Of a stretch of 64,000 bases of DNA, positions 25,641-60,545 are shown one piece after another. This DNA is from Felis catus (taxonomy: Eukaryota). A program made the translations under genes and the position numbers. The first letter of the stretch is position 1; the number at the start of each line of letters is the position of its first letter. Under the pieces are notes generated by a model, which saw only the letters and a program-made list of their open reading frames with translations, was not told where the DNA came from and made no database searches. The DNA lies in contig NC_058368.1 in NCBI RefSeq assembly GCF_018350175.1, positions 50,841,815-50,905,814 of the forward strand, given 5' to 3'.

Positions 25641-25675
<35 letters not shown>

Positions 25676-35361: not shown

Positions 35362-37019
35362 ACATACACTTCTCTTTTTATCCGGAACAACAGAGGTTAG
35401 TTATAACTTGACATTTTATATCTCTTATAACTCTCCTAAATTTGTAAATTATAACAGAAATGTCTCATATGGCAACCTAACCACTAGACTGAAAAACAGA
35501 AAAATGGAAACTTAAAAATGTGTGCCCCCCTCCTCCAGAAAGAAATTCCTGGGTTTTTTTTTTATGGTTTATTATGTATGGTTACAGATAATTTTCCAAA
35601 AATGTTTGTGCTTCAGGTTTTCTTTCCCCCAGAATTGTGCTGCTGCACATGACACTGAGCCCTGTGTGACCCCAGTCACGGTCTCCCCGGTGACCACGGT
35701 CTCCCCGGTGAAGAGTAAGCAAGACAGCTGCTGCCTGCATACGCTGGTCTGGGAAACAGACCTGATCGTGGCTGTGGGTACTGGCCACAGATCTGAAGGG
35801 ACATCCACCCTCCGGGAAACTGTTATGGCTTACTGCAGGGTGTTTAATTCTATTGATAAATTGACTTTAAAATGACATAGCTGATTAAGCCATTTCAAAA
35901 AAATAGCATGGGTTTAGACTGAGCATTGCACTAAAAAAAACCTGGTACTCTGCCTCACTGCCAAATTTGCCAATTGACTTGTTTTGTTGGGGGGGAGGGG
36001 TAGTCAGCCCAATGGCCACTCACCAGTTTTCTGGATCATTGATATGTCTGTACAGTTTCCCTCATGCTCCTCAAGCCTGTGACCGCTAACTCCACAACTA
36101 GACATGCAAGGACCTTGAAGGACACTTGATAAACCATATTCTATCCCCCATCAGGTACCAGGGTTGATCCAAGCTGCTACTTTTTGGTTGCTGCTTATTC
36201 CAATTTTCTACTCAGTCTTTCATTCTCTGACCCAACTGACGAGTCAGCAGAAATTGCACAACTAAATCCTGTAACACTTGAATGTATGTTGCCAAATTCA
36301 GCGAAGAATATTGAACAAGTGCTTAATGTGTTTCCTATAGTTAGCTGCCACACAATAGTAGTCATTTTTAAAAGGTAAGAGGGAGAAGGGGGCTGTTGAT
36401 TGAAATTCTGTTCCTTGATGCAGAACAGACAGTAATAACTTACCAGAAAAATATCCGATCCTTGCACAGGTAGCTCAGGTTCCTTTAAATAAATAGGCAT
36501 GTCAACCGTGTTACCTTTTTATCTCAACAGTGGTACCAGGAAATAACCTTTCGAATCAAGGAAGACCAGAAATTTGAAGTATGCCAATAAAATCTAGATT
36601 TCTGGCTAAACTTATTAATATGCCTCATTACCAGACTACAGCAAATGACAATATATTTTACATTACTGAAAATACTGAATGTTTCATTAAGAAAATATTG
36701 TATGTTTACATTATTCATCAGTAAATGTGGGGGTCAAAATGCCTCATAGTCAATATGTAATATATACATATATTACATATATATATTATATAATATATGT
36801 AATTATGGCATCATTGTATAAGAAAAATAACAGAAAACAAGGAATTATTTCATATAATTCTAATCTTGGCTCTTCCTCAATATGATGTTAGCTTAATACT
36901 TAGTCTTTTCAAGTCCACTTTCAAATTCTGAAAAAGAGATTAGAATAGATGCTTGCTTAGACTTCCCATAGATGTAAAATACCATTGAGTTTAGACTCAA
37001 AACGCATAAATATCTAAAA

Positions 37020-47549: not shown

Positions 47550-49037
47550 AATGTGTTTCTTTCCAAGCAGGACAGAGAAAACGAACAGAGAATGGATTAA
47601 GATGAAAGTGTCAAATGGAGAATAACCACCACAGATATCAAGATCATTAACAGATCTTAAGATGTGGTTGGTCTGTTGTGAAGACTGCTTACTGTGACCT
47701 TAACTCAAGTGACTTGAATTCACATTTTAAAATATCATACCATGAAACTGGATCACTTTTTTTTTCACCATACAGAAAAATAAACTCAAAATGGATGAAA
47801 GACCTAAATGTGAAACGTGAAACCATAAAAATCCATGAAGAGAGCACAGGCAATAATTTCTCTGACATCAGCCAAAGCAACTTCTTTCTACTGATATGTC
47901 TCCTGAGGCAAGGGAAACAAAAGCCAAAATAAACTATTGGGACTTCATCAGAATAAAAACTTCTGCACAGTGAAGGAAAAAATCAACAAAACTAAAAAGG
48001 CAACCTACAAAATGGGGGAAGATATTTGCAAATGTCATATCTTATAAAGGGTTAGTATCCAAAATCTATAAAGAACTTAAAAAACTCGGAGAGAGACTGG
48101 AAGATAGTGGCATAGGAGGATGCTCGGCTCACCGCATCCTGCTGATCACTTAGATTCCACCCACATCTGTCTAAATAACCCAGAAAACCGTGGAAGACTA
48201 GCTGAACAGACTCTCTGGAGCCAAGCATAGACAAGAGGCCCATGGAAGAGGGTAGGAAGGGCAGAGAGGCCGTGCATGCTACACGGACTGGCAGGAGGGA
48301 GCTGGGGTGGTGGAGGGGCAGCCCACCAGGCAAGGCAGAGCCTCTGAAGTCTGGCTTGCAAAAGCAGAGGGGCTGGACTGGGTGAGTTCTGACATCCAGC
48401 GGGACTTAACATCTGGAATGTTAAAAGTCAACAGCTCTGCTCTCAGAGAGCGGCAAGGGTGAGAGGATGCCGGGAGGGAGAGTTGTCGAGCCCGGGAAGA
48501 CAGAGCTGAGCTTGGCAGGAAGACAAAGTCACTAGCAAGCGCCATCTCCCTCTCCCATCCCCCCAGCCGAAATTCCAAAGGAAACCAGTTCCCATCCCCG
48601 AACTTGCTTGCACCTCGAAAACACCCAAGGTTGTGCTTCTGTGGATCCATCCCTCCGACGGGCCTGCCTCCCTCCTGTTGCTGCAGGGCCCCTCCTGCAA
48701 GGGACCACCTACAGCAAAGCGAGCTAAGCCTGCCCCTCCTGCCCCTGTGCACCTTACAGATTCACCCCAGCTAATACGCCCTTGGTCAGATCCCATCAAA
48801 GCACCACCACAAGCCTGGAAGTGTGCAAGTAGCCCAGACAGGGGCCACACCACTCCACAGTGACTCCTGACCGTGGGAAAGGGGAAGATAAGGTACACAC
48901 CAGTCTGACTATGGCCCCAGCAGTGGGCTGGGGACAGACATCAGGTCTGACTGCAGCCCCACCCACCAACACAAGTTACTCCAGACAGCACAGGGGAAGT
49001 GCCCTGCAGTTCTGTGCCACTCCAGGGACTACCCAAA

Positions 49038-49928
49038 ATGATGAAATGGAAGAATTCTACTCAAAAGAAACTCCAGGAAGTAGCAACTGCTAGTGAATTG
49101 ATCTAAAACGATTTAGGCAATATAACAGAACAAGAATTTAGAATAAGAGTCATAAAATTAATCGCTGGGCTTGAAAAAAGTATAGAGGACAGCAGAGAAT
49201 CTATTGCTACAGAGATCAAGGGATTAAGAAATAGTCACCAGGAGCTAAAAAATGCTATAAATGAGGTGCAAAATAAAATGGAGGCGATCACAGCATGGAT
49301 TGAAGAGGCAGAAGAAAGAATAGGTGAACTAGAAGATAAAATTATGGAAAAAGAGGAAACTGAGAAAAAGAGAGATAAAAAAGTCCAGGAATATGAGAGG
49401 AGAATTAGAGAACTAAGTGACACAATTAAACGTAATAATATATGCATAATTGGGATTCCAGAGGAGGAAGAGAGAGGGAAAGGTGCTGAACATGTACTTG
49501 AAGAAATAGCTGAGAACTTCTCTGATCTGGGGAAGGAAAAAGGCATTGAAATCCAAGAAGCACAGAGAACTCCCTTCAGACTTAACTTGAATTGACCTTC
49601 TGCACGACATATCATAGTGAAACTGGCAAAATACAAGGATAAAAAGAAAATTCTGAAAGCAGCTAGGGATAAACAAGCTCTAACCTACAAAGGGAGACCC
49701 ATAAGACTAGTGGCAGACCTATCTACTGAAACTTGGCAGGCCAGAAAGGAATGGCAGGAAATCTTCAATATGATGAACAGAAAAAATATGCAGCTGAGAA
49801 CCCTTTATCCAGCAAGTCTGTCACTCAGAACAGAAGGAGACATAAAGGTTTTCCCAAACAAACAAAAACTGAAGGAATTCATCACCACTAAACCAGCCCT
49901 ACAAGACATCCTAAGGGGGCCTCTGTGA
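49038..49928 (+). pseudogene. L1 ORF1p, in frame but with stops at 49104 and 49593
   Basis: Coiled coil 'EAEERIGELEDKIME', 'NNICIIGIPEEEE', 'LTYKGRPIRLVADLS', 'LKEFITTKPALQ'. Confidence 0.93.
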
Positions 49929-49996
49929 GTGAAATGTTGCAAGAACCACAAAGTACCAGAGATATCACTACAAGCATGAAACCTGGAGACACCACA

Positions 49997-52900
49997 AAGA
50001 CTCTAAACCCATATCTTTCAATAATAACACTGAATGTAAATGGACTAAATGCTCCAACCAAAAGACATAGGGTATCACAATGGACAAAAAACCAAGACCC
50101 ATCTATTTGCTATCTACAAGAGACACATTTTAGACCTGAGGACACCTTCAGATTGAAAGTGAGGAGGTGGAGAAGTATCTATCATGCTACTGCAAGTCAA
50201 AAGAAAGCTGGAAGAGTCATACTATCAGACAAACTAGACTTTAAAGGTTGTAACAAGAGATAAAGAAGGGCATAATATAATAACTACAGGGTGTATCCAA
50301 CAGGAGGAGCTAACAATTATAAATGTCTATGCACCAAATTCAGGGCACCCAAATATATAAAACAATCACAAACATAAGCAACCTTATTGATAAGAATGTG
50401 GTAATTGCAGGGGACTTTAATACCCCACTTACAACAATGGATAGATTATCTAGACACAGGATCAATAAAGAAACAAGGGCCCTGAATGATACATTGGATC
50501 AGATGGACTTGGCAGATATATTTAGAACTCTGCATCCCAAAGCAACAGAATATACTTTCTTCTCGAGTGCACATGGAACATTCTCCAAGATAGATCACAT
50601 ACTGGGTCACAAAACAACCCTTCATAAGTATAAAAGAACTGAGACATACCATGTACACTTTCAGACCACAATGCTATGAAACTTGAAATCAACCACAGGA
50701 AAAAGTCTGGAAAACCTCCAAAAGCATGGAGGTTAAAGAACACCCTACTAAAGAATGAATGGGTCAACCAGGCAATTAGAGAAGAAATTTAAAAATATAT
50801 GGAAACAAAATGAAGATGAAAATACAACAATCCAAATGGTTTGGGATGCAGCGAAGGCAGTCCTGAGAGGAAAATACATTGCAATCCAGGCCTATCTCAA
50901 GAAACAAGAAAAATCCCAAATACAAAATCTATCAGTACACCTAAAGGAAATAGCAGAACAGCAAAGGCAGCCTAAACCCAGCAGAAGAAGAGAAATAATA
51001 AAGATCAGAGCAGAAAGAAACAATATAGAATCTAAAAAAAAACTGTAGAGCAGATCAATGAAACCAAGAGTTGTTTTTTTTAAAAATAAACAAAATTGAT
51101 AAACCTCTAGCCAAGCTTCTCAAAAAAGAAAAGGGAGATGACCCAAATAGATAAAATCATGAATTAAAATGGAATTATTACAAACAATCCCTCAGAAATA
51201 CAAGCAATAATCAGGGAACACTATGAAAAATTATATGCCAACTGGACAACCTGGAAGAAATGGACAAATTCCTAAGCACCCACACACTTCCAAAACCCAA
51301 ACAGGAAGAAATAAAAAACTTGAAGAGACCCATAACCAGCAAAGAAATTGAATCAGTTATCAAAAATCTCCCAACAAATAAGAGTCCAGGACCAGATGGC
51401 TTCCCTGGGGAATTCTACCAGACATTTAAAGCAGAGGTAATACCTATTCTTCTCAAGCTGTTCCAAAAAATAGAAAGGGAAGGAAAACTTCCAGACTCAT
51501 TCTATGAAGCCAGCATTACTTTGATTCCCAAGCCAGACAGAGACCCCGCAAAAAAAGAGAACTACAGGCCAATATCCTTGATGAATATGGATGGAAAAAT
51601 TCTCAACAGGATATTAGCAAATCGAATTCAGCAGCATATAAAAAGAATTATTCACCATGATCAAATGGGATTAATTCCTGGGCTGCAGAGCTGGTTCAAC
51701 ATTCACAAATCAATCAATGTGATACCTCACATTAATAAAAGAAAAGAAAAGAACCATATGATCCTGTCAATCGATGCAGAAAAAGCATTTGACAAAATTC
51801 AGCATCCTTTCTTAATAAAAACCCTCAAGAAAGTTGGGATAGAAGGAACATACTTAAACATCATAAAGGCCATTTATGAAAAGCCTACAGCTAATATCAT
51901 CCTTAATGGCAAAAACTGAGAGCTTTCCCCCTGAAATCAGGAACACGACAGGGAGGTCCACTTTCACCGCTGTTGTTTAACATAGTGTTGGAAGTGCTAG
52001 CATCAGCAATCAGACAACAAAAGGAAATCAAAGGCATCAAAATTGGCAAATATGAAGTCAAGCTTTCACTTTTTGCAGATGACATGATATTATACATGGA
52101 AAACCCGATAGACTCCACCAGAAGTCTGCTAGAACTGATACATGAATTCAGCAAAGTCACAGGATACAAAATCAATGTACAGAAATCAGTTGCATTCTTA
52201 TACACTAATAATGAAGCAACAGAAAGATAAATAAATAAAATGATCCCATTCACAATTGCACTAAGAATCATAAAATACCTAGGAACAAACCTAACCAAAG
52301 ATGTAAAAGATCTGTATGCTGAAAACTATAGAAAGCTTATGAAGCAAATTGAAGAAGATATAAAGAAATAGAAAAACATTCCGTGCTCATGGATTGGAAG
52401 AATAAATATTGTTAAAATGTCAATACTACCCAAAGCTATCTACACATTCAATGCAATCCCAATCAAAATTACACCAGCATTCTTTTCAAAGCTAGAACAA
52501 GCAATCCTAAAATTTGTATGGAATCACAAAAGACCCCGAATAGCCAAAGTAATATTGAGGGAGAGACCAAAGCGGGAGGCATCACAATCTCAGACTTTAG
52601 CCTCTACCACAAAGCTATAATCATCAAGACAGCATGGTATTGGCACAAAAACAGACACATAGACCAATGGAATAGAATAGAGATTCCAGAATTAGACCCA
52701 CAAAAGTATGGCCAACTAATCTTTGACAAAGCAGGAAAGAATATCCAATGGAAAAAAGACAGTCTCTTTAACAAATGGCGCTGGGAGAGCTGGACAGCAA
52801 CATGCAGAAGAATGAAATTAGACCACTTTCTTACACCATTCAAAAAATAAACTCAAAATTGATAAAGGACCTGAGTGTGAGACAGGGAACCATCAAAACC

Positions 52901-53796
52901 CTGGAGGAGAAAGCAGGCAAAAACCTCTCTGACCTCAGCCACAGTGATTTGTTACTTGACACATCACCAAAGGCAAGGGAGTTAAAAGCAAAAATAAACT
53001 ATTGAGACCTCATGAAGATAAAAATATTCTGCACTGCAAAGGAAACAATCAACAAAACTAAAAGGCAACCAACGGAATGGGAAAAGATATTTGCAAATGA
53101 ATATCGGACAAAGGGCTAGTATCCAAAATCCATAAAGAACTCACCAAACTCCACACCCCAAAAACAAATAATCCGGTGAAGAAATGGGCAGAAAACATGA
53201 ATAGACACTTCTCTAAAGAAGACATCCAGATGGCCAACAGGCACATGAAAAGATGCTCAACGTTGCTCCTCATCAGGGAAATACAAATCAAAACCACACT
53301 GAGAGATCACCTCACGCCAGAGGGTGGCTAAAATGAACACATCAGGAGACTGTAGATGCTGGCGAGGACGTGGAGAAACAGGAACCCTCTTGCACTGTTG
53401 GTGGGAATGCAAATTAGTGCAGCCACTCTGGAAAACAGTGTGGAGGTTCCTCAAAAAATTAAAAATAGATCTACCCTATGACCCAGCAATAGCACTGCTA
53501 GGAACTTACCCAAGGGATACAGGAGTGCTGATGCATAGGGCACTTGTGCCCCAATGTTTATAGCAGCACTTTCAACAATAGCCAAATTATGGAAAGAGCC
53601 TAAATGTCCATCAACTGATGAGTGGATAAAAAAATTGTGGTTTATATACACAACGGAATACTACGTGGCAATGAGAAAGAATGAAATATGGCCTTTTGTA
53701 GCAATGCAGATGTAACTGGAGAGTGTTATGCTAAGTGAAATAAGTCATACAGAGAAAGACATATACCATATGTTTTCACTCTTATGTGGATCCTGA
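49997..53796 (+). pseudogene. L1 ORF2p (APE endonuclease and reverse transcriptase), start codon lost, many frameshifts and stops
   Basis: EN motifs 'TLNVNGLN', 'LQETH', 'GDFNTPL', 'SKIDHIL'; RT motifs 'KSPGPDGF', 'YRPISL', 'DAEKAFD', 'LFADDM' (FADD 52072-52083); C-terminal 'HCWWEC'. Confidence 0.95.
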
Positions 53797-54862
53797 GAAG
53801 CTTAACAGAAGACCATGGAGGAGGGAAAGGATAAAAAAAGAGAGAGAGAGAGGGAGAGAGGGGGAGGGAGCCAAACCATAAGAGACTCTTAAAAACTGAG
53901 AACAATCTGAGGGTTGATGGGGGGTGGGAGGGTGGGGAGGGTGGGTGATGGGTACTGAGGAGGGCACCTGTTGGGATGAGTACTGGGTGTTGTATAGAAA
54001 CCAATTTGACAATAAATTTCATATTTAAAAAAAAGAACTTATAAAACTCAACACTCAAGAAATAAATAATCCAATTTAAAAATGTGCCGAAACATGAATA
54101 GACATTTTTCCAAAGAAGACATCCAGATGGCCAATAAACCAATGAGAAGATTGGCCAAAGAAAAGATTCCCAGCATCACTGATCATCAGGGAAATACAAA
54201 TTAAAACTACAATGGGATATCACCTCACACCTGTCAGAACGGCTTAAATTAATAACACAAGAAACAACAGATGTTGGTGAGGATGTAGAGAAAGGGGAAT
54301 CCTCTTGCACTGTTGGTGGGAATGCATACTGGGGCAGCCTCTGTGGTTTTCCACATGGAAGTTCCTCAAAAAGTTAAAAATAGAACTACCCTATGACTCA
54401 GCAATTGCAGTACTAAGTATATACCCAAAGAATACAAAAATACTAATTCAAAAGGATACATGCACCCCATTGTTTGCAGCAGCATTATCTACAATAGCCA
54501 AGTATTATGGAAACAGCTCAAGTGTCCATTGACTAATGAGTGGATAAAGAAGAAGTTTTATATATACACAATGGAATATTAGGCAGCCACACAAAAGAAT
54601 GAAATCTTGCCATCTGCATTGACATGGGTGGAGCTAGAGAGTATTGCACTATGTGAAGTAAGTCAGGCAGGAAAAGACAAATACTATATGATTTCACTCA
54701 TATGTGGGATTTAAGAAACAAAACAAATGAGCAAAGAAGAAAAAAGAAGAGAGAGAGACAAACCGAGAAACAGACTCTTAACTACAGAGTTGCTAGTTAC
54801 CTGAGGGGAGGTTGGTGGGGAGATGGGTTAAACAGGTAATGGGGATTAAGAAGTACACTTGC

Positions 54863-55033
54863 AAAAAAAAAAAAAAAAAAAAAAAAACAGGGCTGGACCT
54901 GCCATGCCCCTCCTGCTTTAGTGGCCGTCTAGGGGCAACGTCCCCAAGCAGTGGCTCTTGGAGACGTGGGTTTGCTGCTCTGTGCAGGGTAGCTGACTCA
55001 TCTAGCCCTTTATGGAAAAAAAAAAAAAAAAAA
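54863..55033 (+). other. TSD-flanked retro-insertion: A25, 128 nt of unidentified sequence, then poly(A)
   Basis: Perfect 15-bp TSD aagaagtacacttgc (54848-54862 / 55034-55048) at a TT/AAGA L1 endonuclease site. Confidence 0.9.
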
Positions 55034-55434
55034 AAGAAGTACACTTGCTGTGATGAGCACTGGGTGATGTATGGAAGTGTTAAATCACTCTATTGTATGC
55101 CTGAAACTAATAATACACTGTATGTTAACTAACTGGAATTTAATTTTTTTTTTAAGGAAAGAGTAAGTCCATTTAAAGGCCTTATCCTGTGTATCTATGC
55201 CATTATCAAGAAAGGCTATGGCCTTGTTTGCAGGAGGTGGGCTTAATACAAGTAAAACAGAATGCAAATAACTCTAACAGAATATAATATAGGTGGGGAA
55301 AATATATGCAGATGACTAGGAAAGGGGAAGCTTTTTTAATTTGATGGACAAAGCAGCGCTCTCGCTACTTCATCTATAACCAACCTAATACAGTAAGCAT
55401 AATGGACAAGTTTCATATTCAGAGTTAACATGTT

Positions 55435-58224: not shown

Positions 58225-60545
58225 AAGGCAAGGATGTCTGCTCCCTCTATCTCTATATAATACTATATCTGAGGTCCTAGCCAGTCTTGTGGTAAATCAA
58301 GAAAAAGAGAAGACATTCCAATTGGAAAGAAAGAAGTGAAACTTGGCTTACTCACGATGACATAATTTTATACACAGTAAATATTAATGAATCTACAAAA
58401 CAAGCTATCAGAACTAATAAATATAACACAGTCAAAGGATACAAGGTAAATGTGAAAAAATCAATCATATTTCTATAAACCAACAATGTTTATGTTCCAA
58501 TAAACAATTGGAAATTTAAAAAATTGTAAATGCCATGGCAATAGTATTAACAAATGAAATACTGGGGATAAATTTAAACACAAATACAAGATCTCCACAC
58601 TGAAAACCCCAAACATTGCTGAGAAAATTAATGGAGACCTAAGTAAGCAGAGAAACGTACCATGTCCATGGAATGATTAATTCAAGGTTAAGATATCAAT
58701 TCTCCCCAAACTGATCTATAGATTCAATGCAATTTCGATAAAAAGCCCATGAAGCTTTGTTTGTTTGTTTGTTTGTTTGTTTTAATTGACAAACTGACTC
58801 TAAAAATCATGTGGAAATGGAAGGGACCGAATATAGCTGAAACAATTTTGAATATGAAGAACAAACTTTGGAGATGTAAACTACCTGATTTTAAGACTTC
58901 TTATATAAGGCTACAATTGTCAAGACAGTGTAATAGTAGCATAAAAATAGATGTACCAAAAAATGGAACGAAATAGAGAACCCAAATATAGCTTCACATA
59001 TATCACTCAATTTGGGGTCTTTAATGTTTTTCTTGGTGTGGATTGGTTTGGTTTTTGTTTTTTGGCTTTCCAAAAAAAAAAAAAAAAAAAAATGTTTCAG
59101 TAATCTCTCTGCCCAGTGTGGGGCTTAAACTCAAGACTCCAAGATCAAGAGTTGCATGGGTGTGGGTAGAGCCTACTTAAAAAAATAAAAAATAAAAAAG
59201 TTTTTGACTTAAAAAAAAAAAAACAAAATCCCCAAGGTAATCTGGGGAGGGGGAAAAATGTGTTTTCAACAAATGTAACTGAACAACTGGATATCAGTGT
59301 GGAAAAAAAGATAAACTTTGACCTCTGCTTCATAATGCATACAAAAATCAACTCCAAATGGATCATCAGCCTAAATATATACCTTAAAACTATAATATTT
59401 CTTTTAAAAAAACAGGAAAAAGAAGAACCCTTTGAAGCTTTGAGGGAGGCAAAGATTTCATAAAGAGAACACACAAAAATGAATCATTTTTAAGGAGATG
59501 ATTAATTGGACTTTAGAAAAATTTAAAACTTTTGCTCCTGAAAAAACACCACTAAGAAGGTGGAAATTCCTAGTCAAAGACCAAGAAGGGTTTTTGCAAT
59601 ACAGATACTTGGCAAAGGACTTATATCCAGAATAATACAATACAACTCAATTGGAAGACAACCCGTTATTAAAAAGTAATGTGAGCAAAAGATTTGTACA
59701 CTTCACAAAAAAGACATATGTATGGCTAATAAGTATATGGAAGGGTGTTCAACATCTTTAGTCATCAGGGAAATACTAATTAAATCAAGATATTCCACAA
59801 GCCCACTAAAATTGTTAACATTAAAACACTGATAGTATCAACTGTTGACATGAATGTAGAGTAAATGAGAGTCATATTCATTACTCATGGCCGTGTAAAA
59901 TGGTGCACTCATACTGAAGAATATTTTGACCCAGAAATTGCACTTAGATATTTACCAATGAAAATGTGTATTTATAAAAAGTCTTGACATAAATTCACAG
60001 ACGCTTTATTAATAATAGCCAATAAATGGAACAACCCAAATGTCCATCAAAAAATAAAAGGATTCCAGGAGGCGGGCGAGGGGTGGCGGGGCCCTGGTGG
60101 CGGGGGAGGTCGCCCACGGAGGCCCCGGCACCCGGGCGGTGGGGGGGGGCGGTGGCAGCGGCGACTCCCAACACGAGCTGGGCCCTTCCAAAAAAAATAA
60201 AAATAAGAATAAAAAATAAAAGGATGAACAAAGGGTGGTATATGTATACAACGGGGTGCTGCTCAGCAATAAAAAGAAATGAACTACCGATACATAAAAC
60301 AACATAACTAAAATCTCAAAATCATTATGCTAAGCCAAAGAAACAGAATCAAACAATATATACTGCAGTACTCTATTTATATAAAATTGTAGAATGTCTA
60401 AAACTTACCCATAGTGACTGGAAAAAAAGATAGTGGCTGCATGGGGTGAGGAGTCAGGTGTTTGTGGAGAGCATGAGGAAAATTTGGGGGGTGATGAAAA
60501 TGTTCCATATTTGTATTATGGTAGTAGTTTTACACATCTGTCAAA
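58225..60545 (+). mobile_element. Ancient L1 (L1MB-ME class) ORF2 3' half and 3' UTR
   Basis: 'gaggtcctagccag', 'caattctccccaaactgatctatagattcaatgcaat', 'acaacccaaatgtccatca', 'ggggtgatgaaaatgttc'. Confidence 0.85.
60064..60210 (+). pseudogene. Retroposed internal 28S rRNA fragment (D8/ES27L region) with A-rich tail
   Basis: 'gcggggccctggtggcggggg...ggcacccggg...ggcagcggcgactcccaacacgagctgggcccttcc' resembles mammalian 28S 'gcggggccccggcggcggggg...ggcacccggg...ggcggcggcgactctggacgcgagccgggcccttcc' (recalled); 15-bp TSD aaaaaataaaaggat (60049-60063 / 60211-60225). Confidence 0.85.

What the first reader, a model, noticed from the sequence alone, without database searches (positions are those of the whole stretch)
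54863..55033. Unidentified 128-nt RNA-like sequence retroposed between two poly(A) runs, folding into a tight four-way junction
Seen: inside an L1 3' UTR, a perfect 15-bp TSD at a TT/AAGA site encloses A25 (54863-54887), 128 nt of GC-rich sequence I cannot assign to any repeat or known RNA (54888-55015), and a second A-run. By eye the + strand forms a 9-bp closing stem (54889-54897 with 55001-55009) and three directly abutting hairpins: 54905-54911 with 54931-54937 (7/7), 54938-54948 with 54957-54967 (10/11), and 54968-54981 with 54986-54999 (13/14). Five of the seven non-Watson-Crick positions are G-U on the + strand, the strand that carries the poly(A). The insert has no AATAAA and ends in 'ccctttatgg'. 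Established: A-run + unique DNA + poly(A) + TSD is the signature of an orphan 3' transduction by L1 machinery. Inference: the source is either the downstream flank of an active SINE or L1 (Pol III read-through to a T-run would explain the missing AATAAA), or an undescribed small structured cellular or viral RNA. The perfect TSD and pure A-runs suggest it is recent.
Basis: partly seen in the sequence, partly recalled or inferred. Interest (0 to 1): 0.75.

Follow-up and report, generated by a model that had tools for sequence, protein, structure and literature searches.

The report
RNA-fragment retrocopy between two poly(A) runs
A 128-base piece of a longer GC-rich RNA was pasted by the L1 copying machinery into an old L1 in a cat-family genome, with an unexplained extra run of A's in front; it folds neatly, but nothing shows it is a functional small RNA, and its exact parent is still unidentified.

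Summary
The anatomy is real: 15-bp TSD, A25, 128 nt (60% GC), A18 tail, and the four-way fold. The fold is only modestly unusual: z -2.7, reached by 12 of 168 GC-rich tile-strands of this window; a closing stem at both ends occurs in about 0.5% of controls. No Rfam family fits. Translating the insert found one relative: unnamed Logan ORFs P0001-3 (36/41 residues identical). The insert is an internal piece of that longer sequence. The relative cannot have an A-run upstream, and its visible differences break two or three helix pairs with no compensation. Contigs of two genome-sized runs show no near-identical second locus. So neither a plain orphan transduction nor a conserved structured RNA gene is supported. 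Best reading (0.5): an L1 retrocopy of a host RNA fragment tailed without a poly(A) signal, whose 5' A25 arose during insertion (template jump, ligation, or nesting in a solitary poly(A)). The parent's identity and the insertion's age are unresolved; a viral parent is not excluded (about 0.13).

The parts
54033..54847 (+). Older L1 3' portion (host element, left part)
   Evidence: 72% identical to the adjacent L1 3' end at 53135-53851; left boundary approximate, read
54848..54862 (+). Left target-site duplication, 15 bp, at a TT/AAGA site
54863..54887 (+). 5' A25; has no counterpart in the relative P0001-3
   Evidence: flank pattern forced by P0002
54888..55015 (+). 128-nt GC-rich insert, internal fragment of a longer sequence
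54889..55009 (+). Predicted four-way junction: closing stem 54889-54897/55001-55009 and hairpins 54905-54937, 54938-54967, 54968-54999
   Evidence: not conserved by compensation in the relative
54889..55014 (-). 42-codon open frame, used only as a search handle; matches residues 24-64 of Logan ORFs P0001-3, which are probably spurious gene calls
   Evidence: no family or atlas match
55016..55033 (+). 3' poly(A) tail, A18, without upstream poly(A) signal
55034..55048 (+). Right target-site duplication
55049..55143 (+). Rest of the host L1 3' UTR; other L1 copies continue into A-rich tails at about 55140-55145
   Evidence: tables 7 and 8

Best explanation
A dead, single-locus retrocopy. Shown: L1-type insertion hallmarks, and that the 128 nt is an internal piece of a longer GC-rich sequence whose known relative has no upstream A-run. 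Inferred: (1) the parent is host nuclear DNA, probably the edge of a CpG-island transcript, about 94-96% identical to the insert; (2) a fragment of that RNA, whose ends lie 1 nt and 6 nt outside a stable closing stem as exonuclease trimming would leave them, got its A-tail without a poly(A) signal, either by non-canonical tailing or by priming and slippage on the short A-rich stretch that follows in the relative; (3) L1 ORF2p copied it by target-primed reverse transcription; (4) the 5' A25 was added during insertion, by a jump or ligation to a poly(A) tail (its own or another RNA's), or the piece landed inside an earlier solitary poly(A) insertion that owns the TSD. The fold is then a reason this fragment survived and was noticed, not a function.
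For: TSD, site and tail. P0001-3 extend 23 residues on one side and about 80 on the other; residues next to the 5' junction exclude an A-run, residues next to the 3' junction force a short A-rich stretch. Host nuclear ORFs do enter this protein collection at the same low multiplicity: 1 of 20 window ORFs tested was present, on 3+1 contigs, against 1+3+2 for P0001-3. P0001/2 has no homologue outside its cluster and scores low as a real protein. In run X1 the insert is one unbroken 171-letter contig with no differences, the length expected for A-runs on both sides, at depth 9.7 against 15.5 for unique flank, so one or two copies. Template switching and RNA ligation are the accepted routes to same-orientation chimeras (10.1101/2025.02.02.635956, passages); solitary poly(A) insertions exist (10.1101/2024.08.27.596794, passages); TENT4B tails RNA fragments (PMC6232586, passages).
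Against: The parent's DNA was never seen, only translations; its organism is unknown. A 95%-identical host parent should have been laid in X1, X22 or X15 at the 90% threshold and was not; this needs the tool's human-like filter, which may have acted (X17 holds 0.67 of the words yet nothing was laid). An intact 38-nt stretch would share 8 of 98 31-mers and should have broken the X1 contig unless a silent difference lies there. Two pure A-runs suit a young insertion better than 4-6% divergence, although about 3% of old Can_a1 copies keep long tails (PMC9599045, passages). The insert pairs better than the relative, the opposite of decay. Noll et al. found no oligo(A)-tailed truncated 5S or U2 retrocopies (PMC5322556, passages).
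Confidence: 0.5

Rival explanations
1. Ordinary orphan 3' transduction: the A25 is the tail of a SINE or L1 that sat in front of the true parent (a paralogue, a Y-linked or copy-variable copy, or an allele now lost); P0001-3 is an empty-site relative.
For: Short transductions are often flanked by poly(A) on both sides and can end without a strong signal (PMC13009371, passages). The residues beyond the 3' junction allow, but do not force, a T-run that could end Pol III read-through. High prior for this anatomy.
Against: The relative has no A-run at the junction and the junction bases are not A-rich as an endonuclease site would be (site preference from my knowledge). The transduced flank should be present in every individual as near-identical unique DNA: none in X1, where it would have broken the contig, or in X22, and 0 of 9 words in three genome-sized runs.
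Confidence: 0.2
2. The parent is a virus of felids; a fragment of viral RNA was captured in the germline by L1, and the 1.8-2.3-kb contigs behind P0001-3 are viral.
For: Explains, without invoking a filter, why no parent is seen in X1 or X22 and why a young-looking insertion differs by 4% or more from its relative. Contig sizes are near the 2064-base feline anellovirus genome (PMC10385657, passages). Two gut metatranscriptome runs hold part of the words.
Against: No related locus in IMG/VR, JGI metagenomes; no Pfam, atlas or homologue match in either open frame. Four published feline anellovirus UTR primers match the insert at only 9-14 of 20-23 bases. Run X15 is full of host DNA (L1 depth 0.29 of the genome run X1), so it is no evidence of viral RNA. 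Coverage of animal viruses in these collections is unknown.
Confidence: 0.13
3. Full-length retrocopy of an undescribed discrete structured small RNA (Pol III-type or processed), the insert keeping the functional fold and P0001-3 being a decayed paralogue.
For: Insert ends coincide with the closing stem (10 of 2000 shuffles, 4 of 684 natural tiles). G-U pairs favour the plus strand. Two of five differences make the insert pair better than P0002.
Against: No compensatory change; 3 of 5 visible differences (4 of 6 for P0001/3) fall on paired bases, as chance predicts with 90 of 128 bases paired. No strict A box, B box, T4 terminator, Sm site or H box on the plus strand. No Rfam or ARAGORN match. 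No near-identical gene in X1 or X22, no copy family, and RNA-type runs hold at most 0.67 of the words.
Confidence: 0.1
4. Fragment of an rDNA spacer or promoter transcript, from a fast-evolving region, tailed by the nucleolar surveillance machinery.
For: Best Rfam hit on the bare insert is pRNA (13.4 bits, E 2.9). TENT4B adenylates pre-rRNA fragments (PMC6232586). A second GC-rich tailed insert in this window resembles 28S rRNA by my recall only.
Against: The score is far below the gathering cut-off of 34 and pairs differently from the MFE. A multicopy parent should give high depth and many contigs; neither is seen.
Confidence: 0.07

Closest known systems
L1 orphan 3' transductions (PMC13009371, passages read; 10.1101/2024.08.27.596794, passages read)
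   Same: Unique sequence between two A-runs, TSD, endonuclease-type site, short length.
   Different: The known relative has no retroelement tail upstream, there is no poly(A) signal, and no near-identical source flank is seen in the two genome-sized runs laid.
Chimeric retrocopies made by template switching or RtcB ligation, such as U6/L1, 28S/L1, mRNA/L1 (10.1101/2025.02.02.635956, passages read; PMC6789731, search listing only)
   Same: Two same-orientation parts of different origin inside one TSD; RNA fragments of 50-500 nt.
   Different: Here the 5' partner is only poly(A) and the 3' partner is a non-repeat fragment, not L1; two separate nested events cannot be excluded.
Tailless retropseudogenes (PMC5322556, passages read)
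   Same: RNA fragment ending at a single-stranded, A-rich position; TSD.
   Different: This insert has an A18 tail and a 5' A25; those are mostly 5'-intact pieces of known RNAs.
L1-mediated endogenous non-retroviral elements such as EBLN (PMC3205384 and others, search listing only; mechanism recalled)
   Same: Would share TSD, tail and lack of a genomic parent.
   Different: No viral match was found here.

Membership tests
L1-mediated (TPRT) retrocopy | Target-site duplication of 7-20 bp | tested here: met
   15/15
L1-mediated (TPRT) retrocopy | 3' poly(A) tail and TT/AAAA-like site | tested here: met
   A18 and TT/AAGA
L1-mediated (TPRT) retrocopy | Identified parent transcript | tested here: inconclusive
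   Relative known only as translations P0001-3
Orphan 3' transduction | Source sequence lies directly behind an L1/SINE poly(A) tail | tested here: not met
   Not met for the only relative found; a different true parent is possible
Orphan 3' transduction | Near-identical source locus with unique flank in the same species | tested here: not met
   None in X1 or X22; 0 of 9 words in X21-X23; Y-linked or filtered copies not excluded
Orphan 3' transduction | Poly(A) signal 10-30 nt before the tail (usual, not obligatory) | tested here: not met
   0 of 12 hexamers
Chimeric retrocopy (template switch or ligation) | Two parts not contiguous in the parent, inside one TSD | tested here: inconclusive
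   A25 absent from the relative, but nesting in an earlier poly(A) insertion gives the same product
Known structured ncRNA (Rfam, tRNA) | Match above gathering score | tested here: not met
New structured ncRNA gene | Compensatory base changes among homologues | tested here: not met
   0 compensatory, 1 consistent, 2-3 pair-breaking; silent codon positions invisible; one cluster only
New structured ncRNA gene | Discrete transcript with these ends | not testable with these tools
Pol III gene or SINE | Internal A/B boxes, T4 terminator, multiple copies | tested here: not met
   Strict recalled consensus patterns absent, one loose A-box-like match; depth of one to two copies
Endogenous viral element | Similarity to a viral genome or protein | tested here: inconclusive
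   No match; coverage of animal viruses in these collections unknown

The most novel reading that the evidence does not exclude
The parent is not in the host genome at all: a structured, nuclease-resistant 128-nt remnant of an uncharacterised felid virus RNA (the 2-kb contigs behind P0001-3) was tailed and captured whole in the germline, the reverse transcriptase jumping from its 5' end to the poly(A) that the closing stem holds next to it. It would be a recent non-coding endogenous viral element pointing to an unnamed virus.
Probability: 0.13. Interest if true: 0.75.

Novelty: new member of a known kind. Interest (0 to 1): 0.35.

Why it matters
As it stands it is one inert insertion. Its use is as a caution and a test case: 'A-run + unique DNA + poly(A) + TSD' is routinely read as an orphan transduction and used to locate active source elements, yet here the only relative has no upstream tail, so the same anatomy may arise during insertion. 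If such cases are common and enriched for fragments with end-to-end stems, they would record which RNA decay products L1 captures. If the parent is viral, it marks a germline capture of an unnamed virus.

Tried and rejected
No whole genome is held for this window, so BLAST for the source was impossible. No second copy in the window. Rfam: only chance hits; tRNA scan empty. Phage and plasmid collections: three 20-29-nt chance matches and none. IMG/VR pattern scans: 2 and 30 loci for short patterns; the 2 were checked and extend to 20 nt at most, the 30 were not aligned; two longer patterns gave 0. JGI metagenomes and GTDB: nothing. Plus-strand open frame: five weak hits, of which three were read and are repeat proteins, one aligned at 32%; none in the word-index search. 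Six sequence strings from the insert occur in 0 papers. Searches for a described 5' untemplated poly(A) in L1 insertions found none outside transductions; the library lacks most subscription papers and no supplements were read. Earlier scan notes hold nothing similar. Polymorphism: X22 has no depth on the insert and X21-X23 hold no words, but they are labelled 'same sample' as holders and joints at the A-runs were masked, so presence/absence is not established. Expression: X15 contains much host DNA and X17 gave no laid contig, so no evidence either way; 4 of 24 listed runs were laid. Resemblances to EBER1, nc886/vault RNA, Y RNA, HDV-like ribozymes, enterovirus cloverleaf, anellovirus UTR and hepatitis delta antigen were recalled, not supported by Rfam or Pfam, and dropped.

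Full report
Observation. A perfect 15-bp duplication (54848-54862, 55034-55048) at a TT/AAGA site encloses A25, 128 nt of 60% GC and an A18 tail. The host is an older L1 3' end, 72% identical to the neighbouring L1. The four helices are the minimum-energy and centroid structure, with 5 G-U among 7 non-Watson-Crick positions. The SINE and L1 types look felid by my knowledge; earlier unchecked notes call the genome cat and place autosomal genes on the same piece.

How unusual is the fold? 16 of 2000 dinucleotide shuffles fold as well (z -2.7), and 307 of 2000 contain a four-way junction. The minus strand scores z -2.95. In this window 12 of 168 GC-rich tile-strands reach z -2.7. The more striking point is that the insert's ends match the closing stem: 10 of 2000 shuffles and 4 of 684 natural tiles do this. 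That is about 0.5%, before allowing for the fact that the fold is why the insert was noticed. Rfam and ARAGORN give nothing above chance, and strict Pol III boxes, a T4 terminator and 12 poly(A)-signal hexamers are absent.

Copy number and source in public runs. No genome is held. Of 24 runs listed, 14 genome-sized runs from 6 studies hold all 9 sampled words, 6 RNA or possibly-RNA runs hold 0.44-0.67, 3 genome-sized runs hold none, and one raw-read run is not indexed. I laid 4 of the 24. In X1 the insert is a single contig of 171 letters with no differences, at depth 9.7 against 15.5 for the unique right flank. That length equals A22 + insert + A20 + G, so the contig ends where A-run words branch. 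A second locus sharing an end but with another flank would have broken it earlier (inference from de Bruijn assembly). X22 has no depth on the insert with flank depth 9.5. Thus a near-identical source with unique flanks, which an ordinary transduction requires in every individual, is not seen. Caveats: the tool drops human-like contigs silently (X17 holds 0.67 of the words but nothing was laid), a Y-linked source would be missing in females, and the empty runs may be dropouts, so polymorphism is not shown. X15 carries much host DNA (L1 depth 0.29 of X1), so expression is not shown either.

A relative. Two of six frames of the insert are open. The minus-strand frame matches P0001, a 144-residue Logan-only ORF, at 36 of 41 residues (E 8e-13). 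Its cluster has three members on 1, 3 and 2 contigs of up to 1.8-2.3 kb. It has no Pfam, atlas or further homologue and no locus in IMG/VR, JGI, GTDB or plasmids. As a control, 1 of 20 ORFs from this window is in the same collection, on 3+1 contigs, so host nuclear gene-caller artefacts occur at this multiplicity. I therefore read P0001-3 as most likely spurious calls on GC-rich felid DNA; this is inference, and the organism is unknown.

What the relative shows. The insert corresponds to residues 24-65, so the relative continues on both sides: the insert is an internal fragment. The residues bordering the insert's 5' end cannot be encoded opposite an A-run; those bordering its 3' end force a short A-rich stretch followed by T's. 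Upstream sequence is GC-rich and downstream less so (0.68 against 0.44 at codon positions 1-2), as at the edge of a CpG island. P0002 differs at five bases at least: 54900 and 54926 unpaired, 54990 turning G-U into G-C, 54891 and 54965 breaking pairs whose partners cannot compensate; P0001 and P0003 break a further pair at 54968. Silent positions are invisible. There is thus no covariation, but the insert pairs better than the relative, which simple decay does not predict.

Mechanism. Shown: TPRT hallmarks, fragment status, no upstream A-run in the relative. Inferred: a fragment of a GC-rich host transcript, trimmed to a stable stem, gained a tail without a signal; TENT4B does this for pre-rRNA fragments (PMC6232586, passages), although such tailed fragments were not found among 5S and U2 retrocopies (PMC5322556, passages), and priming on the A-rich stretch with tail expansion is an alternative (tail growth in daughter SINE copies: PMC9599045, passages). 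[quoted passage not shown] Confidence 0.5.

Rivals. Orphan transduction from an unseen parent (0.2) has the best prior, since short transductions often have poly(A) on both sides (PMC13009371, passages), but fails both source tests here. A viral parent (0.13) explains the missing genomic source most simply but has no positive match; four feline anellovirus UTR primers (PMC10385657, passages and table) do not fit. A discrete structured RNA gene (0.1) rests on the end-to-stem match alone. An rDNA spacer origin (0.07) rests on a sub-threshold pRNA hit.

Verdict. A real L1-type insertion of an RNA fragment, a member of the broad class of non-repeat retrocopies. It looks like an orphan transduction but does not pass that membership test on present evidence. 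Searches found no description of an untemplated 5' poly(A) outside transductions; this is a limited library and no supplements were read. Interest 0.35, held up by the unidentified parent and the unexplained A25.

Noticed in passing
window 60049-60225: A second GC- and CpG-rich insert (about 125 nt, 60064-60190) with an A-rich tail and a perfect 15-bp TSD (60049-60063, 60211-60225) inside an old L1.
   Followed up: partly
window 54902-54905 and 55012-55015: The last four bases of the insert are complementary to four bases at the end of the junction linker, a possible 4-bp pseudoknot; too short to mean much.
   Followed up: partly
window 54904-54921: An ATG in a strong-looking start context opens a five-codon frame; a second ATG lies at the 3' junction (55012-55014). 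Could hint at a 5' leader in the parent.
   Followed up: no
window 54891, 54926, 54965: Three of the five visible differences from P0002 are C/G transversions, more than usual for neutral mammalian divergence by my knowledge; unexplained.
   Followed up: no
window about 48600-54032: A long, decayed L1 with GC-rich 5' UTR repeats lies directly upstream of the host L1, same strand.
   Followed up: no
window 36195-36500 (-): A 101-codon locus-specific ORF is present in the Logan protein collection (P0009, variant P0010), showing that host DNA gene-caller artefacts populate it.
   Followed up: yes
window 25643-25672: Pure T30 run; not examined for a TSD.
   Followed up: no
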